From an uncultured Candidatus Actinomarina sp. (lineage in GTDB: Bacteria; Actinomycetota; Acidimicrobiia; Actinomarinales; Actinomarinaceae), in contig CACHBU010000001.1 of assembly GCA_902578135.1 (NCBI GenBank), forward strand, positions 211,569 to 275,568: a DNA stretch of 64,000 nucleotides, given 5' to 3'. The notes under the pieces are model-generated. The model did no database searches. It worked only from the letters and a program-made list of their open reading frames with translations, and was not told the origin of the DNA. How positions within the stretch are numbered: position 1 is the stretch's first letter; each line of letters begins with the position of its first letter. The translations under genes were made by a program, and so were the position numbers. This document shows, in pieces, positions 2,959 to 47,997 of this stretch.

Positions 2959-3558
2959 TTATTCATCCCATTCATCATCCTTTAATTCATCTGGAAGATT
3001 TTCTTCGCATGCTTGCCATGTTTGTACAATTGGGTCGTCTTCTCTAAGTTCCCAATCATCATCAATATAAGCATCTAACCTAACTTCTCGGTTGAAATAG
3101 TTTGGATCAGGTACTTTTGGATAGCCATTTTCTCGAAAACATTTTGCCATGAATAGGGATCTATCAATCTCTTTTGAAACCTGGACAGGATCTTCAAACT
3201 GATTTTCGTCAGCCACACCCCACAAGTTATACTTTAAAGCACATTCCTCAATAATACTCCAAAGTTCTTGTGCCTCTTGTTCAGTTATTGTTTCAAAATA
3301 TGAAGCTATAGTCGTATATAGGTCCAGAAAGTTTTTTGGCTCTTTAAATTTATAACCAGACTCATTTACACATTGGACAAGAACTAAAGGAGCATCTTCA
3401 TCTGAAATTTCTTCTCGTTCGTCTGCTAAGTCAACACCCAAAGCAATTGCCTCTTTACCTTTGTCGGTATCTGCAACAGAGATAACAGCTTGCTCGTCTT
3501 GTTGAAAAAAAGAGCATGCTGATAAAAAGATTAATACAACTGATGCTTTTTTATACAT
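2959..3558 (-). CDS. Secreted Cys-containing lipoprotein, tandem paralogue 3 of 3 (unknown function)
   Basis: I prefer the internal ATG at 3558 (MYKKASVVLIFLSAC, lipobox LSAC), which removes the overlap with the upstream gene. It shares two internal repeats with the two upstream ORFs: VQCVNESGYKFKEP and AKCFRENGYPKVPDP, plus EECALKYNLWG. Confidence 0.6.
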   Translation of the reverse strand: MYKKASVVLIFLSACSFFQQDEQAVISVADTDKGKEAIALGVDLADEREEISDEDAPLVLVQCVNESGYKFKEPKNFLDLYTTIASYFETITEQEAQELWSIIEECALKYNLWGVADENQFEDPVQVSKEIDRSLFMAKCFRENGYPKVPDPNYFNREVRLDAYIDDDWELREDDPIVQTWQACEENLPDELKDDEWDE

Positions 3559-40832: not shown

Positions 40833-43067
40833 CTAAACAATTGCAAAACTTTCATTTGAAAAATCTATTGATAAGCTTTGCGATGTAGATATCATTGAAA
40901 AATTACTTTCACCAACACCAAGAATTGCTGGAATATTGTGCTCAGCACACCTTATCGCCATGTGAGAGTTTGGTCCCCCATATTGGGTAATCAAAGATTT
41001 GATTTTGTAATTAAAAATCCAATCCCATCCGGGATCTGCTGCTGGAATAACTACAATTTTATTATCGAGGTCATAAGGCTGATTTGAATAATTATCCAGA
41101 AGTAAAACTTTCCCAGAAACTGTTCCCTGTCCAATGTAATTTCCGTCTTTGCTCATTTCCTCATATAAATAAAAATCATCAGATGACGAGATTAAGTCAG
41201 GCATTAATGTATTTTTAAGATCTAAATTAATCGTATTCTCTTGGTTAAATTCAATATTTAGTCGTTGAAAAAGCTCTTCGTCGCTTATATTTTGCTCATC
41301 TATTTCATTTAAAATACCGTCAATTCCTTTTGTGTAGTAAAATTTTGAATTCTCTCTTGTTGCTATAGCGGTTTGAAACATTTCAACCCATGATGATGCC
41401 GTGTATGGAATATTGTTTAATTCAAAATATTTATCAATATTTGAAAATATAACTTTTTGCAATGAAATATTTTCATCTTGTGGTTCACTATTCTGAATCA
41501 ACAGCTCTGTAAACTCTAAATTATTTTTTAGATTAGATGAAGACAAATTATAGTTACCGGCCCTTATGTGTCCATAAATGTCTAAAAAGCTACTAAGACT
41601 TTTTTTTCCAAGTTTGACCTGATAAGCGTCCGACTTCATTTTCGTACTTATCGACTTTACTGACAACAGTAATGAGTTCTTTTGTGCTTCGGTAATTACA
41701 TCTTTTCTCAAAATATTGTTTACTTGAGCAAAATACACAAATCCCAACCTTGAATGATGTGTAAATGGCAATGCCATATTGTCTCTAATAAATTTTATAT
41801 TTTCTTTTTTAGAGTAATCAAAATTCCCATCAAGCAAAGAGAATGCTTTTAACATAGTTTTATTATTTTTTTCTAGGGTTGATTTGTTTAAGCTATTAAT
41901 TTCAATTAAATCCTGATGCCATTTATGAATCTCTTCTGGGCTAATAATGTCTTTATATTCAATAGCAAATTCATCCTCAGTATCAAACACATATGAAGAT
42001 CGAGAGATATTAAATTCAATTGAGTCATGTAAATGTGGATTCTCTTTCAATTTTTCTAATTGATGCTGTATTATTTTTTCACAGCTATCGACTTGTAAGC
42101 TTCGAGTTAAAAAACTATTTAAACTATGGTTTACATTTATGTAGGCCACATTGTTGAAAAGTTCCATTAATTTAGCCGGTTTATAATTTCTATAACCAAA
42201 TTCACCACGCTGTATATTCCATGTTGAGTCTGTAAACATAAATTTGTATAAGCCAAATGCAACATTGTCGGGTTTTTTACCAATCATTTCGGCTGGATTC
42301 ATGTCTGACATGTTGCTAAATAGCTGATTGACACCAAAACGATCGATCGTAGTTTCTTTTAAAGCTTCATATTTTTTGACATTCTGCTCAATAACTTTCT
42401 TCTCTGCAAATATCAAATCCTTATAAACTTTTTTCTCCATCAGAGGCCGTACTTGTAAAAGCAGAGGAGAAGAATTGCTATCTAGAACCATTTCAATGTC
42501 TAAATGTTTGTTCCCAAATAAATCTTCTAGTTTTGTCAGAATTTTTAGATATATAGAATATTCATCATATTTTTTTGGCAACTTGTTTATCGATCTATGA
42601 ACATAAAAATTTTTAATCTGATTGTATTTTCCAGATGTAACCGCATCAGTTTCTGGCCCATTATAAATTGAAAATGAACGATAAAGAGAGTCTGTTCCAA
42701 CCCTAAAAGATGTAAGCACAGATACGCTCTTTGCGTTTTTTATATAATCTTGCAAAATTACTGTTTGATTGGCATCTTTTTCATAGCTATTTAAAACCTG
42801 ATTCCATGATTCTTTTATATCGTCTATTCTTTCCTTGCTAATTGGTCCGATGGAAAGATATTTACCTGCATTAGATGAGCTTTCTAAGTCTTCATTAGAA
42901 CTATTGCTTCTTATCATTATTTCTTCTGAAAAATCATAAAGAATTTCGTTAATATTTCCTATATCTTCCAAAGAAAGCTCTCTAAAGTATGGAATTTCTA
43001 TATCCGTATGATTTGCTACAAACTCAAGGTTTTTAGCTTTATTACCATAATTTATTTGATCATCCAT
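40833..43067 (-). CDS. PEP-utilising-enzyme family phosphotransferase (ATP-grasp PPDK_N domain, large middle region, swivelling His domain; no PEP/pyruvate TIM barrel)
   Basis: N-terminal YGNKAKNLEFV and IRSNSSNEDLESSSNAGKYLSI (PPDK_N). C-terminal GGPNSHMAIRCAEHNIPAILGV (mobile phospho-His domain). The architecture resembles PEP synthase or rifampicin-phosphotransferase-type enzymes. Confidence 0.75.
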   Translation of the reverse strand: MDDQINYGNKAKNLEFVANHTDIEIPYFRELSLEDIGNINEILYDFSEEIMIRSNSSNEDLESSSNAGKYLSIGPISKERIDDIKESWNQVLNSYEKDANQTVILQDYIKNAKSVSVLTSFRVGTDSLYRSFSIYNGPETDAVTSGKYNQIKNFYVHRSINKLPKKYDEYSIYLKILTKLEDLFGNKHLDIEMVLDSNSSPLLLQVRPLMEKKVYKDLIFAEKKVIEQNVKKYEALKETTIDRFGVNQLFSNMSDMNPAEMIGKKPDNVAFGLYKFMFTDSTWNIQRGEFGYRNYKPAKLMELFNNVAYINVNHSLNSFLTRSLQVDSCEKIIQHQLEKLKENPHLHDSIEFNISRSSYVFDTEDEFAIEYKDIISPEEIHKWHQDLIEINSLNKSTLEKNNKTMLKAFSLLDGNFDYSKKENIKFIRDNMALPFTHHSRLGFVYFAQVNNILRKDVITEAQKNSLLLSVKSISTKMKSDAYQVKLGKKSLSSFLDIYGHIRAGNYNLSSSNLKNNLEFTELLIQNSEPQDENISLQKVIFSNIDKYFELNNIPYTASSWVEMFQTAIATRENSKFYYTKGIDGILNEIDEQNISDEELFQRLNIEFNQENTINLDLKNTLMPDLISSSDDFYLYEEMSKDGNYIGQGTVSGKVLLLDNYSNQPYDLDNKIVVIPAADPGWDWIFNYKIKSLITQYGGPNSHMAIRCAEHNIPAILGVGESNFSMISTSQSLSIDFSNESFAIV

Positions 43068-43074
43068 TTTTCAC

Positions 43075-44430
43075 CTATTTTTTGACTGACTCCAAAGCTA
43101 CTTGAACTTTTTCAGACGGAAATTCGTAATCAACCATCTCCCCACTCAAAAAGTTTTCATAAGCTTTCATATCAAAGTGACCATGTCCACACATTGCTGT
43201 CAAAACAGCAATACTTTCAGAATTTTGGTCGGCATCTTTCACGGCCCTAATTGCTGATGCAATTGCATGAGTTGCTTCTGGAGCAGGAACTATTCCTTCT
43301 GTTTTAGCAAAAAGTTGACCAGCTTCGAAACATTCTTTTTGGCCAATCGCTTCTGCTTCTATTGCTTTGTCTTCGTAAAGTGCACTCACAAGAGGAGCCA
43401 TTCCATGGTATCTTAATCCACCGGCATGAATAGGATCTGGGACAAAACTTGAACCAAGAGTGTGCATTTTGACAACAGGTGCCATACCTACTGAATCCCC
43501 AAAGTCATATGTGTAAACACCTTTAGTTAATGAAGGGCATGCCTCTGGTTCAACCGCACGAATAATAGTTTTTTGCTCTGTTTTCATATTGTTCCTAGCA
43601 AACGGTGAAAATAGCCCAGTAAAGTTTGAACCTCCACCAGTACAACCAACAATTATATCTGGGTAGTCATCAGCCATCTCCATTTGTTTCAGTGCCTCAA
43701 GACCAATTATTGATTGGTGCATTAGAACATGGTTTAGCACGCTTCCCAATGCGTATCTTGTTCCTTCTTCCTTCCTTGCAACCTCAATTGCTTCAGAGAT
43801 TGCTATTCCAAGGCTTCCTGGAGTATTTGGATCTTCTGACAAAAATTGTTTACCGATATCAGTCCTCTCAGACGGGCTTGGATGGACAGTAGCCCCATAT
43901 ATTTCCATCATTGTTTTTCTGTAAGGCTTTGACTCAAAAGATGCGGCTACCTGAAAAACTTCAAGTTCAATTCCAAAGGCTTGGCATGCAAATGACAAAG
44001 CTGAACCCCACTGACCAGCACCCGTTTCTGTAACCATTTTTTTTATTCCTTCTTCCGCGTTGTAATACGCTTGAGGAATTGCAGTATTTGGTTTGTGAGA
44101 ACCTGATGGTGACCCACCTTCGTATTTATAATATATTCTTGACTTTGTTCCTAAAGCTTTTTCAAGCCTTAAAGCCCTATACATTGGTGAAGGCCTGTAT
44201 AGCTTATACAAATCTAAAACGGGTTCAGGAATATCTATATAGCTTTGGTCAGATACTTCCTGCAAAATCAATCCCATTGGGAATAACGGTGCTAAATCCT
44301 CTGGGCCGATTGGATCCATTGTCTGTGGATTCAACTGCGGTGGTAAAGGATTTGGTAAATCAGGCACGATGTTGTACCACTGTTTTGGAATATCATTTTC
44401 ATCTAATAAAAATTTGTACTGTTCTTTCAT
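43075..44430 (-). CDS. trpB: Tryptophan synthase beta-chain-like protein, long TrpB2 type
   Basis: GGSPSGSHKPNTAIPQAYY (PLP lysine), GAGQWGSALS and GCTGGGSNFTGL. The 451 aa length fits TrpB2 rather than TrpB1. No trpA or other trp gene is nearby. Confidence 0.85.
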   Translation of the reverse strand: MKEQYKFLLDENDIPKQWYNIVPDLPNPLPPQLNPQTMDPIGPEDLAPLFPMGLILQEVSDQSYIDIPEPVLDLYKLYRPSPMYRALRLEKALGTKSRIYYKYEGGSPSGSHKPNTAIPQAYYNAEEGIKKMVTETGAGQWGSALSFACQAFGIELEVFQVAASFESKPYRKTMMEIYGATVHPSPSERTDIGKQFLSEDPNTPGSLGIAISEAIEVARKEEGTRYALGSVLNHVLMHQSIIGLEALKQMEMADDYPDIIVGCTGGGSNFTGLFSPFARNNMKTEQKTIIRAVEPEACPSLTKGVYTYDFGDSVGMAPVVKMHTLGSSFVPDPIHAGGLRYHGMAPLVSALYEDKAIEAEAIGQKECFEAGQLFAKTEGIVPAPEATHAIASAIRAVKDADQNSESIAVLTAMCGHGHFDMKAYENFLSGEMVDYEFPSEKVQVALESVKK

Positions 44431-44483
44431 CTTTACTCCTTTGTTTGGGTTGAGCCCGGAGTTTTAATTTCAGTGACAGTAAC

Positions 44484-44575
44484 AAAAAAACCGGGCTGTG
44501 CCCGGTTTAAGAACTAACTAGTGGGGCACCTACCTATGTAGTTGACCACCAATTCCAGCTAGTTACATTTTTCAT
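44484..44575 (-). promoter_or_regulatory. Trp-codon leader peptide (MKNVTSWNWWSTT, 44575-44534) plus a rho-independent attenuator (stem 44505-44491, U-tract 44490-44484)
   Basis: The minus strand reads ATGAAAAATGTAACTAGCTGGAATTGGTGGTCAACTACATAG...GGTGCCCCAC...AAACCGGGCACAGCCCGGTTTTTTT. There are three TGG codons among four consecutive codons. GTGCCC can pair with GGGCAC, the 5' arm of the terminator, as an antiterminator. Confidence 0.72.
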
Positions 44576-44653
44576 TACTTATAAGTTACCAAATAAGACT
44601 TAAGATGCAAAATTTATTTAAGTATAATTTTTAATTCTTCTATTCTTTATTAA

Positions 44654-45382
44654 ATGGAAAACATAATACAAGCTACAAAGTTAACCAAAATTTATGGAGA
44701 AAAAGAAACCAGTGTTACAGCACTCGACAATGTAGATGTCCAATTTAACGAAAATGAATTTACAGCAATAATGGGACCTTCTGGTTCTGGTAAGTCAACA
44801 TTGCTTCATTGTTTAGCAGGTTTAGACAGACCAACATCAGGACAAATATTCCTGAAAGATCAAGATATATCAACTTTAAACGACAAACAATTAACAAAAA
44901 TTAGAAGAGACAGTTTTGGATTTGTTTTTCAAGCTTTTAATTTAATACCAACCCTAACAGCTGAAGAGAATATAACCTTGCCAGCATCCATTTCAGGTAA
45001 AAAACCAGATATGGACTGGATTAAACAAGTTGTAGAAACAGTTGATATCGGTGACAGATTAACACATAGGCCCAATGAGTTATCTGGTGGTCAACAGCAG
45101 AGGGTTGCTGCTGCCAGAGCAATGGCAACAAAACCAGAGGTTATTTTTGCTGATGAGCCTTCAGGAAACTTAGACTCCAAATCAAGCAAAGAGCTCTTAA
45201 CTTTCATGAAATCTGTTGTGGAGGAATTAAACCAAACAATAATAATGGTGACACACGATCCATATGCTGCCTCTTATGCAAGCAGAGTAATTATGCTTAA
45301 AGATGGAAGTATTGCAAGCGATTTAAACGAACCAACTCAAGAAGAAATTGTTGCAGAGGTTACAGCACTCACTAATATCTGA
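44654..45382 (+). CDS. ABC transporter ATP-binding protein (MacB/FtsE-like)
   Basis: Walker A GPSGSGKST, signature LSGGQQQRVAAARAM, Walker B VIFADEPSGNLD, H-loop VTHD. Confidence 0.92.
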   Translation: MENIIQATKLTKIYGEKETSVTALDNVDVQFNENEFTAIMGPSGSGKSTLLHCLAGLDRPTSGQIFLKDQDISTLNDKQLTKIRRDSFGFVFQAFNLIPTLTAEENITLPASISGKKPDMDWIKQVVETVDIGDRLTHRPNELSGGQQQRVAAARAMATKPEVIFADEPSGNLDSKSSKELLTFMKSVVEELNQTIIMVTHDPYAASYASRVIMLKDGSIASDLNEPTQEEIVAEVTALTNI

Positions 45383-47997
45383 TGTTTGGTTTTACAAAAC
45401 GCCCTCTTTTTTTGATTGCATGGAAAAACTTAAAAACCTATCCCATTAGAATTTTTCTCACTACGTCTTCCATTATTCTTGGTGTCGCAGTAATAATTGC
45501 TTCAAATATATTTTCAGAAAGTAATAAATCTGCGTTCGATAACTTATTTTCAGGAATTTATGAAGGAGTTGACTTAGTTGTACAGCCGATTCAGGAAGAT
45601 TTTGCACAGGGCTTTAGTGGAGATGGAGGACAGGGTCCTATTTCTTTCGAGGTAAAAAAAATACCCGATAATAGAATTCAGGAGATTACAAACTTGCCTA
45701 GTGTAAGAGCTGCATGGGGTGAGGTTTTAGGTTTTGCACAATTCATAAAAATTGTAGATGGTGAAACAGTATTAATTTCAAATGGATTTGCTCCTACATT
45801 TGGTGCAGCATGGGATAGTAATCCATATGCACAACAGTGGTCACTTGTAGAGGGACAACCCCCAACAAACAAAAAAGAAGTTGTCATGGATGTCGTAACT
45901 GCTGAAAATCATAATTTCTTAGTCGGAGATAGGGTGACAGTTCTTGCCGGTGCGACACCTGCATCATTTACAATTGTTGGAATTGCAGAGTTTGCTAATG
46001 TTGGTGCACCAGGTGGCGCAACTTTTGCTTTATTTGAATTTAGAACTGCCCAAGCACTTCTTGATTCAAAAGGAGAAGTTGATCTTATCAATGTAGTTAT
46101 AGAAAACAATTTTGATATTAACGATGTAAAAAATGATATAACAAACCTAGATTCAGAAAATTTAAATGTAATTAACGCTCAAGAAGCTGCAGCCGAACAA
46201 GCTGATTCAATTAAGCAGGGTCTAGATTTTTTTAACACAATACTTAATGTTTTTGCAGGGATTGCAATTTTTGTTGGTGCTTTTATTATTCAAAATACCT
46301 TTAGAATACTTTTACTCCAAAGAACAAAAGAACTGTCTTTGCTTAGAGCGCTCGGCACATCCAAAAGACAGATTTATAGGTTGGTCATATCTGAGTCTTT
46401 GTTTATGTCAATAATTGGTTCAGGGCTCGGTATAGCTTTAGGTATTGGACTAGCAGTAGCAGTTAAAGAGGGGTTACAGTATTTTGAATTTGGTCTTCCT
46501 GACGGCCCTTTGGTTCTGACTACAGAAGCTGCAATCACAGGATTAATTATTGGTATTACAGTTACGATCTTTTCTTCTCTACTCCCTGCTAGAAAAGCTT
46601 CACAAGTAAGTCCAATGGAAGCAATCAGAGATAGTGTTTCAACCCCACAAAGAAAATCTTTACTTACAAGACTTTTGTTTGGCTCGATAATTTCTATTGT
46701 TGGATTTGGAGTACTGTTTGGAGTTTTGTACGACTTCTTAGATCTCCCAACCTTATCATCCTTGCAACAAGTTGGATTTGGTGCAGGTGTTATATTTATT
46801 GGAATCTCAGTTGTAACTCCGTCTATTACAAAGCCTTTTGTTTTTATATTTGATAAAATTTACAACTTATTATTTGGAATTTTAGGCAAATTAGCAACTG
46901 AAAACTCTAAAAGAACTCCAAGAAGAACTGCATCTACAGCTTCTGCTTTGATGATTGGCCTTACATTGATTTCTTTAGCAAATGTTATTACAACTTCGTT
47001 TAAGGCACAGGCAGAGTCTCTAATTAGCGAAGTTATTCTTGCAGACTATCAGGTGAGTGCAGCAAATGTTTTTGCTTCTCCAGGTATTCCAACAGGTTTG
47101 TCTGAGGAACTTTTACAGCTCGATGAAGTAACCAAGCTCTCAAGAACAAGAGCAACAGTTGTTGGATTTAACGATAGACCTTTGATTTTGGGTGCTGTTG
47201 ACGAGACTGTTTTTGATCTCGTAAAAACTGACGATGTATCAGGAGATAGAAAAGACTTTCTTGATGAGAACGCTATCGGAATATTAAAACAAACTGCGGA
47301 AAGAGAAGAGCTTTTTGTTGGAGACGAAGTTGTTTTAACAATTCCTGAAGAAGGGGAAAGAACATTTACAGTGTCTTACATATTTGACTGGACTACACAA
47401 CCTCCAGCAGAATTTTTTGTCTTACTTGAAAATAATTCTTTTTTTGCGGATGAGTCTTTAGACACAGAACTATATTTCAATGTTGATAAAAAAACTCCAG
47501 AGTTAGAAGAGAAAATTAATGCAATCGTTGATGAATATCCAGGAGTAGAAATAAGAGATGAAGATGGTCTGGTTGAAGAGGCAAACAACCAAATTCAGTT
47601 ACTTTTAAATGTAATATACGGATTCCTGTCGATATCTATTTTTGTAGCACTTTTTGGAATAACCAACACACTATCACTTTCTGTTTTTGAAAGAACAAGA
47701 GAAATAGGTCTTATGAGAGCTATAGGTACTTACAGAAAACAAATTAGAAGAATGATATTTATTGAATCATCGATAATTTCAATATTCGGAGCAGCATTAG
47801 GAACAAGTCTAGGTATATTTTTTGCTTGGAGCCTCATACAAACCCTTGCTGACGAAGGGTTCACTATGTTCGCAGTGTCTATCCCTCAGACAGCATTATG
47901 GATTGGAATTTCGATTATTGCAGGAGTAATCGCTGCAATACTTCCTGCAATTCGAGCATCCAGACAAAATATTCTTGAAGCTATCTCTTATGAGTAA
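45382..47997 (+). CDS. Double FtsX-domain ABC transporter permease (YbbP-like, about 10 TM)
   Basis: 871 aa with two FtsX-type 4-TM modules (RTKELSLLRALGTSKRQI and RTREIGLMRAIGTYRKQI), each preceded by a large extracytoplasmic domain. ATGA overlap with the ATPase gene. Confidence 0.85.
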   Translation: MFGFTKRPLFLIAWKNLKTYPIRIFLTTSSIILGVAVIIASNIFSESNKSAFDNLFSGIYEGVDLVVQPIQEDFAQGFSGDGGQGPISFEVKKIPDNRIQEITNLPSVRAAWGEVLGFAQFIKIVDGETVLISNGFAPTFGAAWDSNPYAQQWSLVEGQPPTNKKEVVMDVVTAENHNFLVGDRVTVLAGATPASFTIVGIAEFANVGAPGGATFALFEFRTAQALLDSKGEVDLINVVIENNFDINDVKNDITNLDSENLNVINAQEAAAEQADSIKQGLDFFNTILNVFAGIAIFVGAFIIQNTFRILLLQRTKELSLLRALGTSKRQIYRLVISESLFMSIIGSGLGIALGIGLAVAVKEGLQYFEFGLPDGPLVLTTEAAITGLIIGITVTIFSSLLPARKASQVSPMEAIRDSVSTPQRKSLLTRLLFGSIISIVGFGVLFGVLYDFLDLPTLSSLQQVGFGAGVIFIGISVVTPSITKPFVFIFDKIYNLLFGILGKLATENSKRTPRRTASTASALMIGLTLISLANVITTSFKAQAESLISEVILADYQVSAANVFASPGIPTGLSEELLQLDEVTKLSRTRATVVGFNDRPLILGAVDETVFDLVKTDDVSGDRKDFLDENAIGILKQTAEREELFVGDEVVLTIPEEGERTFTVSYIFDWTTQPPAEFFVLLENNSFFADESLDTELYFNVDKKTPELEEKINAIVDEYPGVEIRDEDGLVEEANNQIQLLLNVIYGFLSISIFVALFGITNTLSLSVFERTREIGLMRAIGTYRKQIRRMIFIESSIISIFGAALGTSLGIFFAWSLIQTLADEGFTMFAVSIPQTALWIGISIIAGVIAAILPAIRASRQNILEAISYE

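What the first reader, a model, noticed from the sequence alone, without database searches (positions are those of the whole stretch)
44484..44575. Classical-looking ribosome-mediated Trp attenuator (leader peptide MKNVTSWNWWSTT) in front of an orphan trpB2
A 13-codon ORF lies 103 nt upstream of trpB2 on the minus strand. It contains TGG-AAT-TGG-TGG, three Trp codons in four positions, although Trp is normally among the rarest residues. Its stop is followed by the small helix CTAC-ATAG-GTAG extended by flanking pairs, then GGTGCCCC, then the terminator CCGGGC-ACA-GCCCGG plus U7. GTGCCC is complementary to GGGCAC in the 5' arm of the terminator, which gives the alternative antiterminator needed for attenuation. 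This ties expression of trpB2 and the downstream phosphotransferase directly to charged tRNA-Trp availability. That is functional evidence that this orphan pair really acts in Trp supply or salvage.
Basis: seen in the sequence. Interest (0 to 1): 0.6.

Follow-up and report, generated by a model that had tools for sequence, protein, structure and literature searches.

The report
Tryptophan-sensing leader switch before trpB2
A 13-codon, tryptophan-rich mini-gene followed by competing RNA hairpins and a transcription stop signal sits in front of the lone tryptophan-synthase-like gene (trpB2) of the abundant marine bacterium Candidatus Actinomarina; the switch is a textbook type, but it implies that this reported tryptophan auxotroph turns on a one-enzyme salvage route when charged tRNA-Trp runs short.

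Summary
ATG 44575 to TAG 44534 (minus strand) encodes MKNVTSWNWWSTT, followed by CUAC-AUAG-GUAG, GGUGCCCC and the terminator CCGGGC-ACA-GCCCGG-U7 (ends 44484), 103 nt before trpB2.

It is the only short ORF in the 64-kb window with 3 Trp in 4 codons (0.045 expected). The window is Ca. Actinomarina. The leader, with W-x-W-W (one lineage only WW), terminator and antiterminator, is present in all 23 congeneric trpB2 loci and in none of 57 trpB2 loci from other phyla.

Constrained folds of 26 distinct variants all behave as classical attenuation requires:
- With no ribosome, hairpin 1:2 forms and termination follows.
- With a ribosome stalled on a Trp codon, the antiterminator GUGCCC:GGGCAC forms.
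- With a ribosome at the stop codon, the antiterminator is masked.

Hairpin 1:2 shows compensatory changes. The promoter (TTGnnn-16-TAnnnT-7-ATG, no Shine-Dalgarno) indicates a leaderless leader ORF, as in Streptomyces.

Caveats:
- The 744-aa downstream kinase-like gene is optional (10 of 23 loci).
- Nine Actinomarina genomes keep an intact leader but no trpB2 within the 4.6-8 kb locus.
- Nothing was tested experimentally.

Verdict: a real attenuator and a new member of a known kind, of modest interest.

The parts
44583..44610 (-). Putative promoter. The -35 box is TTGCAT (44610-44605), followed by a 16-nt spacer and a TGG-extended -10 box TAACTT (44588-44583). Seven nt separate the -10 box from the leader ATG, and there is no Shine-Dalgarno sequence.
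   Evidence: The pattern TTGnnn-16-TAnnnT-7(8)-ATG is kept in every lineage although the bases differ: TAACTT, TACCTT, TATGTT, TACATT, TATCTT, TAGATT, TAGAGT, TATTCT. The strict sigma-70 scan did not call it. In 4 of 8 runs, metatranscriptome contigs stop 8-34 nt inside the leader ORF. In 3 runs contigs cross the ATG.
44534..44575 (-). Leader ORF trpL-like, MKNVTSWNWWSTT*. Trp codons lie at 44557-44555, 44551-44549 and 44548-44546.
   Evidence: The start codon, reading frame, W-x-W-W motif (WW only in L012) and stop codon are kept in all 26 distinct variants, which encode 15 different peptides.
44512..44564 (-). Segment 1:2 hairpin (anti-antiterminator). AACUAGCUGG..UGG.GG pairs with CC.CCA.CUAGUUAGUU. 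The Trp codons lie in the 5' arm and GUGCCCC in the 3' arm.
   Evidence: It is the minimum-free-energy (MFE) structure at -21.2 kcal/mol. The consensus structure is kept in both lineage groups. Three pairs show compensatory double changes, and the covariation score is 0.237 against 0.126 in shuffles, with 0 of 500 shuffles as high.
44530..44541 (-). Small hairpin CUAC-AUAG-GUAG that holds the stop codon.
   Evidence: 97% of cells paired, with one compensatory C-G to U-A change.
44524..44529 (-). Segment 2, the antiterminator 5' strand GUGCCC. It starts 4 nt after the stop codon.
44498..44503 (-). Segment 3, GGGCAC. It covers the terminator 5' arm and part of the loop, and is the partner of segment 2.
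   Evidence: 96.8% of cells pair across 26 variants, against 26-54% when the partner is slid. The changes are U-A to U-G (6 variants), C-G to U-G (12) and G-C to G-U (1), all of which keep pairing.
44484..44508 (-). Intrinsic terminator AAACCGGGC-ACA-GCCCGGUUU plus a U-run (segments 3:4), -14.3 kcal/mol.
44444..44477 (-). Conserved spacer element GTCACTGAAATTAAAACTCCGGGCTCAACCCAAA. Its CUCC pairs with the trpB2 Shine-Dalgarno GGAG. Its role is unclear.
   Evidence: It is present in group A and orphan loci and absent in group B. On the + strand it reads as terminator-like.
43075..44430 (-). trpB2, a TrpB-like PLP enzyme of 451 aa and the regulated gene. Its Shine-Dalgarno AAGGAG lies at 44441-44436.
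   Evidence: Pfam PALP. NCBIfam NF009057 at 701 bits (cut-off 366) and TIGR01415 at 609 bits (cut-off 519).
40833..43067 (-). A 744-aa protein of the PEP-utilizer mobile-domain family (PRK05849-like), 7 nt after trpB2. It is probably co-transcribed here but is an optional gene.
   Evidence: It is present in 10 of 23 trpB2 loci.

Best explanation
This is a ribosome-mediated (leader-peptide) transcription attenuator that senses charged tRNA-Trp and gates transcription of trpB2, and in this strain also the 744-aa gene behind it.

Proposed sequence of events:
1. Transcription starts at or within 1-2 nt of the leader AUG, giving a leaderless mRNA. A 70S ribosome begins translating the 13-codon ORF.
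2. If Trp-tRNA is plentiful, the ribosome runs to the UAG stop. Its footprint then covers GUGCCC, which starts 4 nt past the stop. Segment 3 stays free, the terminator CCGGGC/GCCCGG-U7 forms and RNA polymerase stops.
3. If nobody translates, hairpin 1:2 locks GUGCCC against the Trp codons. The result is the same: termination.
4. If Trp-tRNA is scarce, the ribosome stalls on UGG codon 7, 9 or 10. This covers segment 1 and frees GUGCCC. GUGCCC pairs with GGGCAC as soon as that emerges and pre-empts the terminator stem, so polymerase reads into trpB2.
5. TrpB2 then makes Trp from scavenged indole, using serine or O-phosphoserine, in an organism that lacks the rest of the pathway.

Shown here: the sequence features, their conservation, their covariation and the predicted three-state folding.

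Inferred: translation of the ORF, the transcription start, stalling, Trp-dependent read-through and the TrpB2 substrate.
For: - Sequence and rarity.
- Conservation: the leader ORF plus terminator is in 23 of 23 Actinomarina trpB2 loci whose TrpB2 identity runs from 100% down to 85%. There are 15 different leader peptides among the 26 distinct variants; 25 keep W-x-W-W and L012 keeps only WW.
- Specificity: 57 trpB2 loci from other phyla lack such a leader.
- Co-transcriptional model, with the RNA truncated before the terminator 3' arm, for 26 distinct variants. With no ribosome, 1:2 forms at -13 to -25 kcal/mol and segment 3 is unpaired in 25 of 26. With a ribosome on W9 or W10, the antiterminator forms at -5 to -13 in 26 of 26. 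With a ribosome at the stop, only 0 to -3.6 kcal/mol of residual structure remains.
- Energies sit in the classical order: 1:2 at -21.2, 2:3 at -10.2, 3:4 at -14.3.
- Antiterminator: 96.8% paired, and all three variable positions change in a pair-preserving way.
- Hairpin 1:2: three compensatory pairs, with a covariation score above 500 of 500 shuffles and far above the slid controls.
- Regulated gene: a bona fide TrpB2.
- Promoter geometry is conserved and fits the TAnnnT -10 box and leaderless trpL of Streptomyces lividans (PMC8079986).
- Metatranscriptomes: the region is transcribed and contigs span the terminator into trpB2. Leader contigs are 2-4 times deeper than the trpB2 body in X1 and X2. 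In X3, X5, X7 and X9 coverage ends 8-34 nt inside the ORF with nothing upstream.
- Context: Trp attenuators with double or triple UGG are known in Corynebacterium and Streptomyces (PMC1262725).
Against: - There is no experiment, no ribosome profiling and no mapped transcription start site or 3' end. Only assembled metatranscriptome contigs were available. They are unstranded, and three runs have contigs that cross the leader ATG.
- At equilibrium the terminator (-14.3) beats the 6-bp antiterminator in every ribosome state. The switch therefore works only kinetically. This also holds for E. coli trp, but it remains an assumption here.
- The antiterminator has no double-sided compensatory change. 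In three variants (L005, L010, L011) its terminal pair is lost, and in L021 it is weak (-5.1).
- Group A hairpin 1:2 shows only one-sided changes.
- Nine genomes keep the complete element with no trpB2 in the 4.6-8 kb locus. Conservation is therefore not tied strictly to trpB2.
- The sequences are closely related (one genus), so conservation partly reflects shared ancestry.
Confidence: 0.85

Rival explanations
1. The leader is primarily an autonomous small RNA and/or small peptide gene: a roughly 92-nt leaderless transcript ending at its own terminator. Control of trpB2 would be secondary or historical. This resembles the attenuator-derived sRNA rnTrpL and peptide peTrpL of Sinorhizobium.
For: - Nine Actinomarina species-level genomes keep the promoter, ORF, W-x-W-W, antiterminator, terminator and spacer element but have no trpB2 in the locus.
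- All nine still pass the three-state fold test.
- The MLKTNNWNWWNLLT lineage is much diverged from trpB2-linked leaders yet is intact.
- RNA contigs on the orphan L186 end at the U-run 3490-3493 in two runs.
- A precedent exists in PMC6614838 and PMC7298713.
Against: - Four of the orphans are nearly identical to trpB2-linked siblings and share a single deletion junction. They can be recent relics.
- No target or trans function is suggested by anything seen.
- Peptide residues other than Trp vary freely, giving 15 different peptides, which argues against a functional peptide.
- trpB2 might lie elsewhere in those incomplete genomes, as in the metagenome-assembled genome (MAG) that holds both L021 and L186.
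- The two functions are not mutually exclusive.
Confidence: 0.08
2. The Trp-rich ORF is a coincidence. The hairpins are just an ordinary terminator or insulator between divergent and convergent transcription units, and trpB2 has its own promoter downstream.
For: - The sigma-70 scan did not call the upstream promoter.
- Group A has a 57-nt spacer between the terminator U-run and the trpB2 ATG that could hide a promoter.
- The spacer element reads as a terminator on the opposite strand.
Against: - No co-directional gene lies upstream for the terminator to end; the neighbouring gene is divergent.
- Chance expectation for such an ORF is 0.045 per 64 kb.
- The ORF, frame and Trp codons are kept across 26 variants while neighbouring codons change and co-vary with the 3' arm.
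- In group B the U-run is followed within 8 nt by the Shine-Dalgarno sequence, leaving no room for a promoter.
- RNA contigs span the terminator into trpB2.
Confidence: 0.03
3. The leader RNA is read by something other than the ribosome: a TRAP-like protein, uncharged tRNA (T-box) or a small-molecule riboswitch.
For: - The window's leader contains five UAG triplets.
- These mechanisms control trp genes in Firmicutes.
Against: - (G/U)AG triplets number 0-5 and are not conserved, whereas TRAP needs 9-11.
- A permissive Rfam scan (E up to 10) gave no T-box, riboswitch or any other hit on the leader.
- The conserved, in-frame Trp codons and stop placement have no role in those mechanisms.
Confidence: 0.02

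Closest known systems
Leaderless trpL attenuators of Actinobacteria. Examples are Streptomyces lividans/coelicolor trpL1-trpE (MFAHSTRNWWWTAHPAAH; PMC8079986), the Corynebacterium and Streptomyces trp attenuators, and C. diphtheriae trpB2A (PMC1262725).
   Same: - Same phylum.
- A short leader ORF with two or three UGG codons.
- A TAnnnT -10 box, with the transcript predicted to start at the AUG and no Shine-Dalgarno sequence.
- A G+C-rich terminator with a U-run and an antiterminator sharing a G+C-rich triple segment.
- It can precede a single gene rather than a whole operon.
   Different: - There is no detectable sequence similarity.
- The genome here has 33-37% G+C.
- The regulated gene is the only trp gene left in a reported Trp auxotroph, so the switch gates salvage rather than de novo synthesis.
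- The Trp codons are arranged W-x-W-W.
- The element is also found without a downstream gene in some genomes.
E. coli / enterobacterial trp operon leader (trpL; Rfam Trp_leader RF00513)
   Same: - The same four-segment logic (1:2, 2:3, 3:4), with tandem Trp codons in segment 1.
- A stop codon placed so that a terminating ribosome masks segment 2.
- A terminator more stable than the antiterminator, so control is kinetic.
   Different: - There is no match to the Rfam model, even at E up to 10.
- The E. coli leader has a 5' UTR and a Shine-Dalgarno sequence, and it regulates trpEDCBA.
- The antiterminator here is shorter: 6 bp, or 9 bp with an inner helix in group B.
Polycysteine leaderless short ORFs of mycobacteria (bioRxiv 10.1101/834739)
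   Same: A leaderless, amino-acid-codon-rich mini-ORF in an actinobacterium that controls downstream genes in response to supply of that amino acid.
   Different: That system has no intrinsic terminator and is thought to act through other routes. Here a canonical terminator/antiterminator pair is present.
Sinorhizobium meliloti trpL attenuator with the trans-acting sRNA rnTrpL and peptide peTrpL (PMC6614838, PMC7298713)
   Same: A Trp attenuator whose terminated product is a discrete small RNA. This is a possible model for the orphan copies.
   Different: No evidence of any trans target was found here, and the lineage and sequence are unrelated.

Membership tests
Leader-peptide (ribosome-mediated) transcription attenuator, trp type | Short ORF with clustered codons of the sensed amino acid | tested here: met
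   MKNVTSWNWWSTT has 3 Trp in 4 codons. It is the only such ORF in 64 kb, against 0.045 expected. The feature is conserved in 26 variants.
Leader-peptide (ribosome-mediated) transcription attenuator, trp type | Intrinsic terminator between the leader ORF and the structural gene | tested here: met
   A 9-bp stem with 6 G-C pairs plus U7, at -14.3 kcal/mol. 97.8% of cells are paired across variants.
Leader-peptide (ribosome-mediated) transcription attenuator, trp type | Antiterminator that uses the terminator's 5' strand | tested here: met
   GUGCCC:GGGCAC is the minimum-free-energy structure when a ribosome covers the Trp codons, in 26 of 26 variants. 96.8% of cells are paired, with only pair-preserving changes. 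No double compensatory change is seen.
Leader-peptide (ribosome-mediated) transcription attenuator, trp type | Anti-antiterminator (1:2) in which the regulatory codons pair with segment 2 | tested here: met
   The Trp codons pair with CCCCA (group A) or CCUAGUUC (group B). Three pairs are compensatory and the covariation score beats 500 of 500 shuffles.
Leader-peptide (ribosome-mediated) transcription attenuator, trp type | Stop codon placed so that a terminating ribosome masks segment 2 | tested here: met
   GUGCC(C) starts 4 nt (group A) or 0 nt (group B) after the stop codon. With a ribosome at the stop, residual structure is 0 to -3.6 kcal/mol.
Leader-peptide (ribosome-mediated) transcription attenuator, trp type | Regulated gene belongs to metabolism of the sensed amino acid | tested here: met
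   TrpB2 matches NF009057 at 701 bits and TIGR01415 at 609 bits, both above their cut-offs.
Leader-peptide (ribosome-mediated) transcription attenuator, trp type | Leader ORF is translated and read-through rises on Trp starvation | not testable with these tools
   Only assembled metatranscriptome contigs were available. They show transcription, read-through and deeper leader coverage in 2 runs, but give no condition dependence.
Actinobacterial leaderless leader ORFs | TAnnnT -10 box 6-8 nt before the start codon, no Shine-Dalgarno sequence, and a transcription start at the AUG | tested here: inconclusive
   The sequence pattern is met in every lineage. Contig ends lie 8-34 nt inside the ORF with zero coverage upstream in 4 runs, but contigs cross the ATG in 3 runs and the data are unstranded.
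Rfam Trp_leader (RF00513) and other curated RNA families | Match to the covariance model | tested here: not met
   A permissive cmscan (E up to 10) of 43000-46000 gave no hit on the leader. The element works like this family but is not a sequence member of it.
TRAP-regulated trp leaders | 9-11 (G/U)AG repeats spaced by 2-3 nt | tested here: not met
   There are 0-5 triplets and they are not conserved.
TrpB2 (TrpB-like PLP enzyme) | Full-length match above the curated cut-off | tested here: met
   NF009057 at 701.4 bits against a cut-off of 366. It scores below the cut-off for canonical TrpB TIGR00263 (142 against 392).

The most novel reading that the evidence does not exclude
The attenuator may be more than a cis switch. 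Its terminated product, a roughly 92-nt leaderless RNA and/or its 13-14-aa peptide, could have a trans-acting role in the Trp-starvation response of Actinomarina. That would explain why at least nine species-level genomes keep a structurally perfect, transcribed copy with no trpB2 behind it, and why one MAG carries both an orphan copy and a trpB2-linked copy.
Probability: 0.1. Interest if true: 0.6.

Novelty: new member of a known kind. Interest (0 to 1): 0.35.

Why it matters
Ca. Actinomarina is among the most abundant photoheterotrophs of the surface ocean. Two papers describe it as universally auxotrophic for tryptophan (PMC7771536; bioRxiv 10.64898/2026.04.03.716425). A term search of the bioRxiv paper found no mention of trpB, indole, attenuation or a leader, and my narrower term search of PMC7771536 turned up nothing on them.

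A Trp-codon attenuator in front of the lone trpB2 is regulatory evidence that the gene serves Trp supply and is switched on by Trp-tRNA shortage. Many lineages would then be conditional indole-salvagers rather than strict Trp importers. That bears on cross-feeding models and on cultivation media, for example supplying indole.

The element also extends leaderless leader-peptide attenuation to a low-G+C, extremely streamlined actinobacterium, which implies that tight transcription-translation coupling is retained there.

The mechanism itself is textbook, so the wider interest is modest.

Tried and rejected
- **Rfam.** A permissive scan gave no family for the leader.
- **Loose collection pattern.** It yielded only two useful new loci, L084 and L186.
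- **Shine-Dalgarno release idea.** I proposed that the freed terminator 3' arm (GCCCGG) pairs with the downstream CCGGGC of the spacer element and releases the trpB2 Shine-Dalgarno sequence in antiterminated transcripts. Folding does not support this. GGAG stays paired with CUCC in all states. The idea is dropped.
- **TRAP, T-box and riboswitch readings.** Rejected.
- **Equilibrium folding of the full leader.** It never shows the antiterminator. Only the co-transcriptional truncation does.
- **Strict sigma-70 scan.** It does not call the proposed promoter.
- **Raw reads.** No raw-read RNA runs were available, only contigs, so 5' and 3' ends and strandedness could not be measured.

Full report
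**Observation.**
On the minus strand, ATG at 44575 opens a 13-codon ORF, MKNVTSWNWWSTT, whose stop TAG lies at 44536-44534. It is followed by these features:
- the helix CUAC-AUAG-GUAG (44541-44530);
- GGUGCCCC;
- a 20-nt A/U-rich stretch;
- the terminator AAACCGGGC-ACA-GCCCGGUUU with seven U in all (44508-44484).

The ORF ends 103 nt before the trpB2 ATG at 44430. The consensus scan calls the terminator. This is the only short ATG ORF in the whole 64-kb window, on either strand, with at least three Trp in four codons. Markov simulations expect 0.045 per window, and Trp makes up 0.98% of residues in long ORFs.

**Organism and genes.**
The TrpB2 protein retrieves 100%-identical loci from single-cell genomes named Candidatus Actinomarina / OCS155. 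The window is therefore from this low-G+C marine actinobacterium.
- The gene at 43075-44430 is a bona fide TrpB2. It matches NCBIfam NF009057 at 701 bits (cut-off 366) and TIGR01415 at 609 bits (cut-off 519). It scores well below the cut-off for canonical TrpB.
- The gene 7 nt downstream (40833-43067) is a full-length PRK05849-like protein (488 bits, just under the cut-off of 501). Its only Pfam hit is a C-terminal PEP-utilizer mobile domain.
- Upstream lies a divergent ABC ATPase gene (44654+). The terminator therefore does not end any co-directional upstream gene.

Two papers report that Trp biosynthesis is absent from all Actinomarinales genomes, including 84 complete ones (PMC7771536; bioRxiv 10.64898/2026.04.03.716425). 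A term search of the bioRxiv paper found no mention of trpB, indole, attenuation or a leader. For PMC7771536 I searched only 'tryptophan', 'auxotroph' and 'amino acid biosynthesis'. I could not verify the orphan status in this genome, because the whole-genome tools were shut.

**Comparative evidence.**
All 23 Actinomarina trpB2 loci (TrpB2 identity 100% down to 85%) carry the leader. Two architectures occur.
- Group A, which includes the window, has a 13-codon ORF and a 57-nt spacer between the terminator U-run and the trpB2 ATG (55 to 60 nt across group A).
- Group B has a 14-codon ORF (for example MYKVTNWNWWTLHM), and its terminator is followed almost at once by the Shine-Dalgarno sequence.

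With additional loci there are 26 distinct leader sequences encoding 15 different peptides. The ATG, the frame and a stop three to four codons after WW are always kept. The pattern W-x-W-W is kept in all but L012, which has only WW. The other residues vary freely.

In contrast, 57 trpB2 loci from other phyla show no such leader. A few have chance-level W-containing ORFs, and one is a possible independent case in a Rhodospirillales locus (L064).

**Structure and mechanism.**
The free leader folds (z = -3.4) into a long hairpin. In it the Trp codons (5' arm) pair with CCCCA of GGUGCCCCA (3' arm). The terminator follows.

Folding the full leader at equilibrium always gives the terminator (-14.3 kcal/mol), whatever the ribosome position. 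The switch must therefore be kinetic, as in E. coli. When the RNA is truncated just before the terminator's 3' arm, to mimic the moment of decision, all 26 variants behave as the classical model demands:

| Ribosome state | Predicted structure | Outcome |
|---|---|---|
| No ribosome | Hairpin 1:2 (-13 to -25 kcal/mol); segment 3 unpaired in 25 of 26 | Terminator can form |
| Covering up to 11 nt past a Trp codon in the A site | GUGCCC:GGGCAC antiterminator (-5 to -13 kcal/mol; extended by a 3-bp inner helix in group B) | Read-through |
| At the stop codon | GUGCC occluded; only 0 to -3.6 kcal/mol of structure remains | Terminator can form |

GUGCC begins 4 nt (group A) or 0 nt (group B) after the stop codon.

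**Covariation.**
- Antiterminator: 96.8% of cells pair across the 26 variants, against 26-54% for slid partners. The three variable positions change only in pair-preserving ways: U-A to U-G, C-G to U-G, and G-C to G-U. There is no double compensatory change.
- Terminator: essentially invariant.
- Hairpin 1:2 in group B-type leaders: three pairs have double compensatory changes. The covariation score is 0.237 against 0.126 +/- 0.015 in shuffles, with 0 of 500 shuffles as high. 95.7% of cells are paired, against 37-54% when slid.
- Hairpin 1:2 in group A: only one-sided changes.

The sequences come from one genus, so this support is real but not overwhelming.

**Promoter and leaderless start.**
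In every lineage the leader ATG is preceded by TTGnnn, 16 nt, TAnnnT, and then 7 nt (8 in L021). The bases themselves differ between lineages, and there is no Shine-Dalgarno sequence. trpB2 itself has a strong AAGGAG. This is the actinobacterial TAnnnT -10 geometry. It matches the leaderless trpL and other leader ORFs mapped in Streptomyces lividans (PMC8079986).

Only assembled, unstranded metatranscriptome contigs were available. They show the following:
- The locus is transcribed.
- Contigs span the terminator into trpB2.
- In X1 and X2 the leader contigs are 2-4 times deeper than the trpB2 body.
- In X3, X5, X7 and X9 coverage stops 8-34 nt inside the ORF with none upstream. One contig is adapter-flanked at 44567.
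- In X1, X2 and X6 some contigs cross the ATG.

The leaderless start is therefore likely but not shown.

1. The 744-aa gene is present after trpB2 in only 10 of 23 loci. Elsewhere trpB2 is monocistronic and overlaps the 3' end of a convergent CPDase-like gene. The identity pattern of the 744-aa gene is discordant with that of TrpB2, which suggests recombination. It is an optional passenger of the attenuated transcript.
2. Nine Actinomarina genomes have the complete promoter, leader, terminator and spacer element but no trpB2 within the 4.6-8 kb fetched. The convergent CPDase-like gene is next in eight of them; in L084 the next gene is a different convergent 549-aa ORF.
   - Four of the nine share one deletion junction on two different promoter backgrounds and are nearly identical to trpB2-linked siblings.
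   - Four others form a diverged lineage (MLKTNNWNWWNLLT).
   - One contig of that lineage (L186) belongs to the same metagenome-assembled genome (MAG) as L021. In L021 a related leader plus trpB2 sits in a different genomic context.
   - All nine orphans still pass the three-state fold test.
   - RNA contigs on L186 end at the U-run.

These orphans may be recent relics, or the terminated leader RNA or peptide may have a role of its own. I cannot decide between these.

**Alternatives.**
- A TRAP-type mechanism is excluded: (G/U)AG triplets number 0-5 and are not conserved.
- T-box and riboswitch families give no Rfam hit even at E up to 10.
- A chance ORF next to an ordinary terminator is contradicted by the conservation, by the covariation, and by the lack of promoter space in group B.
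- My own idea of a coupled Shine-Dalgarno-release helix was not supported by folding.

**Comparison with known systems.**
Functionally this is a classical trp leader-peptide attenuator. The nearest relatives in kind are the leaderless trpL attenuators of Streptomyces and Corynebacterium (PMC1262725, PMC8079986). It is not a sequence member of Rfam Trp_leader.

What is particular here:
- The host is a streamlined, low-G+C marine actinobacterium.
- The target is the sole surviving trp gene of a reported auxotroph, so the switch gates salvage. From general knowledge, TrpB2 enzymes bind indole tightly and some use O-phosphoserine (Hettwer & Sterner 2002; Busch et al. 2014). I am citing these from memory and did not check them here.
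- Orphan copies exist.

Earlier notes of this scan on other Actinomarina genomes reach the same reading. They are not independent evidence, but I re-tested their main claims here.

**Verdict.**
This is a real feature and a new member of a known kind. My confidence in ribosome-mediated Trp attenuation of trpB2 is about 0.85, and the interest is modest at 0.35.

Noticed in passing
L084:4868-4959(-); L186:3398-3491; L232, L259, L307, L215, L234, L291, L300 (leader plus terminator positions as): Nine Actinomarina genomes have orphan attenuators. The promoter, W-x-W-W leader ORF, antiterminator, terminator and spacer element are all intact, but no trpB2 follows. The next gene is the convergent CPDase-like gene in eight of them and a different 549-aa ORF in L084. 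L215, L234, L291 and L300 share one deletion junction. RNA contigs on L186 end at the U-run.
   Followed up: partly
window 44444-44477 (-): A 34-nt spacer element, GTCACTGAAATTAAAACTCCGGGCTCAACCCAAA, is conserved in group A and orphan loci and absent in group B. On the + strand it reads as a terminator-like hairpin. In eight of the nine orphan loci it abuts the stop of the convergent CPDase-like gene. Its CUCC is predicted to sequester the trpB2 Shine-Dalgarno GGAG in all states.
   Followed up: partly
window 40833-43067 (-): The 744-aa PRK05849-like gene with a PEP-utilizer mobile domain follows trpB2 in only 10 of 23 loci. Its identity pattern (91% to group B loci, 71% to some group A loci) is discordant with TrpB2 identity. 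This suggests a flexible gene moved by recombination.
   Followed up: partly
L021 and L186 (both contigs of MAG SRP077602_co4_282): One MAG holds a leader plus trpB2 in a different genomic context (L021, no ABC or CPDase neighbours) and also an orphan leader at the usual ABC/CPDase site (L186). Either the leader-trpB2 module moved as a unit, or the bin mixes strains.
   Followed up: no
L064:2915-2990 (Rhodospirillales trpB2 locus): A mini-ORF MNCGWHWG* lies 83 nt upstream of trpB2, with the hairpin UGUGGUUGG/CCAAUUAACCACA over its Trp codons. It may be an independent, minimal Trp attenuator in an alphaproteobacterium.
   Followed up: no
window 44654 (+) and window-wide: The divergent ABC ATPase gene has TATTCT followed by 7 nt and then ATG, with no Shine-Dalgarno sequence. 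About 14 of 61 ORFs in the window have TAnnnT 6-8 nt before the start codon, and many lack a Shine-Dalgarno sequence. Leaderless mRNAs may be common in this genome.
   Followed up: no
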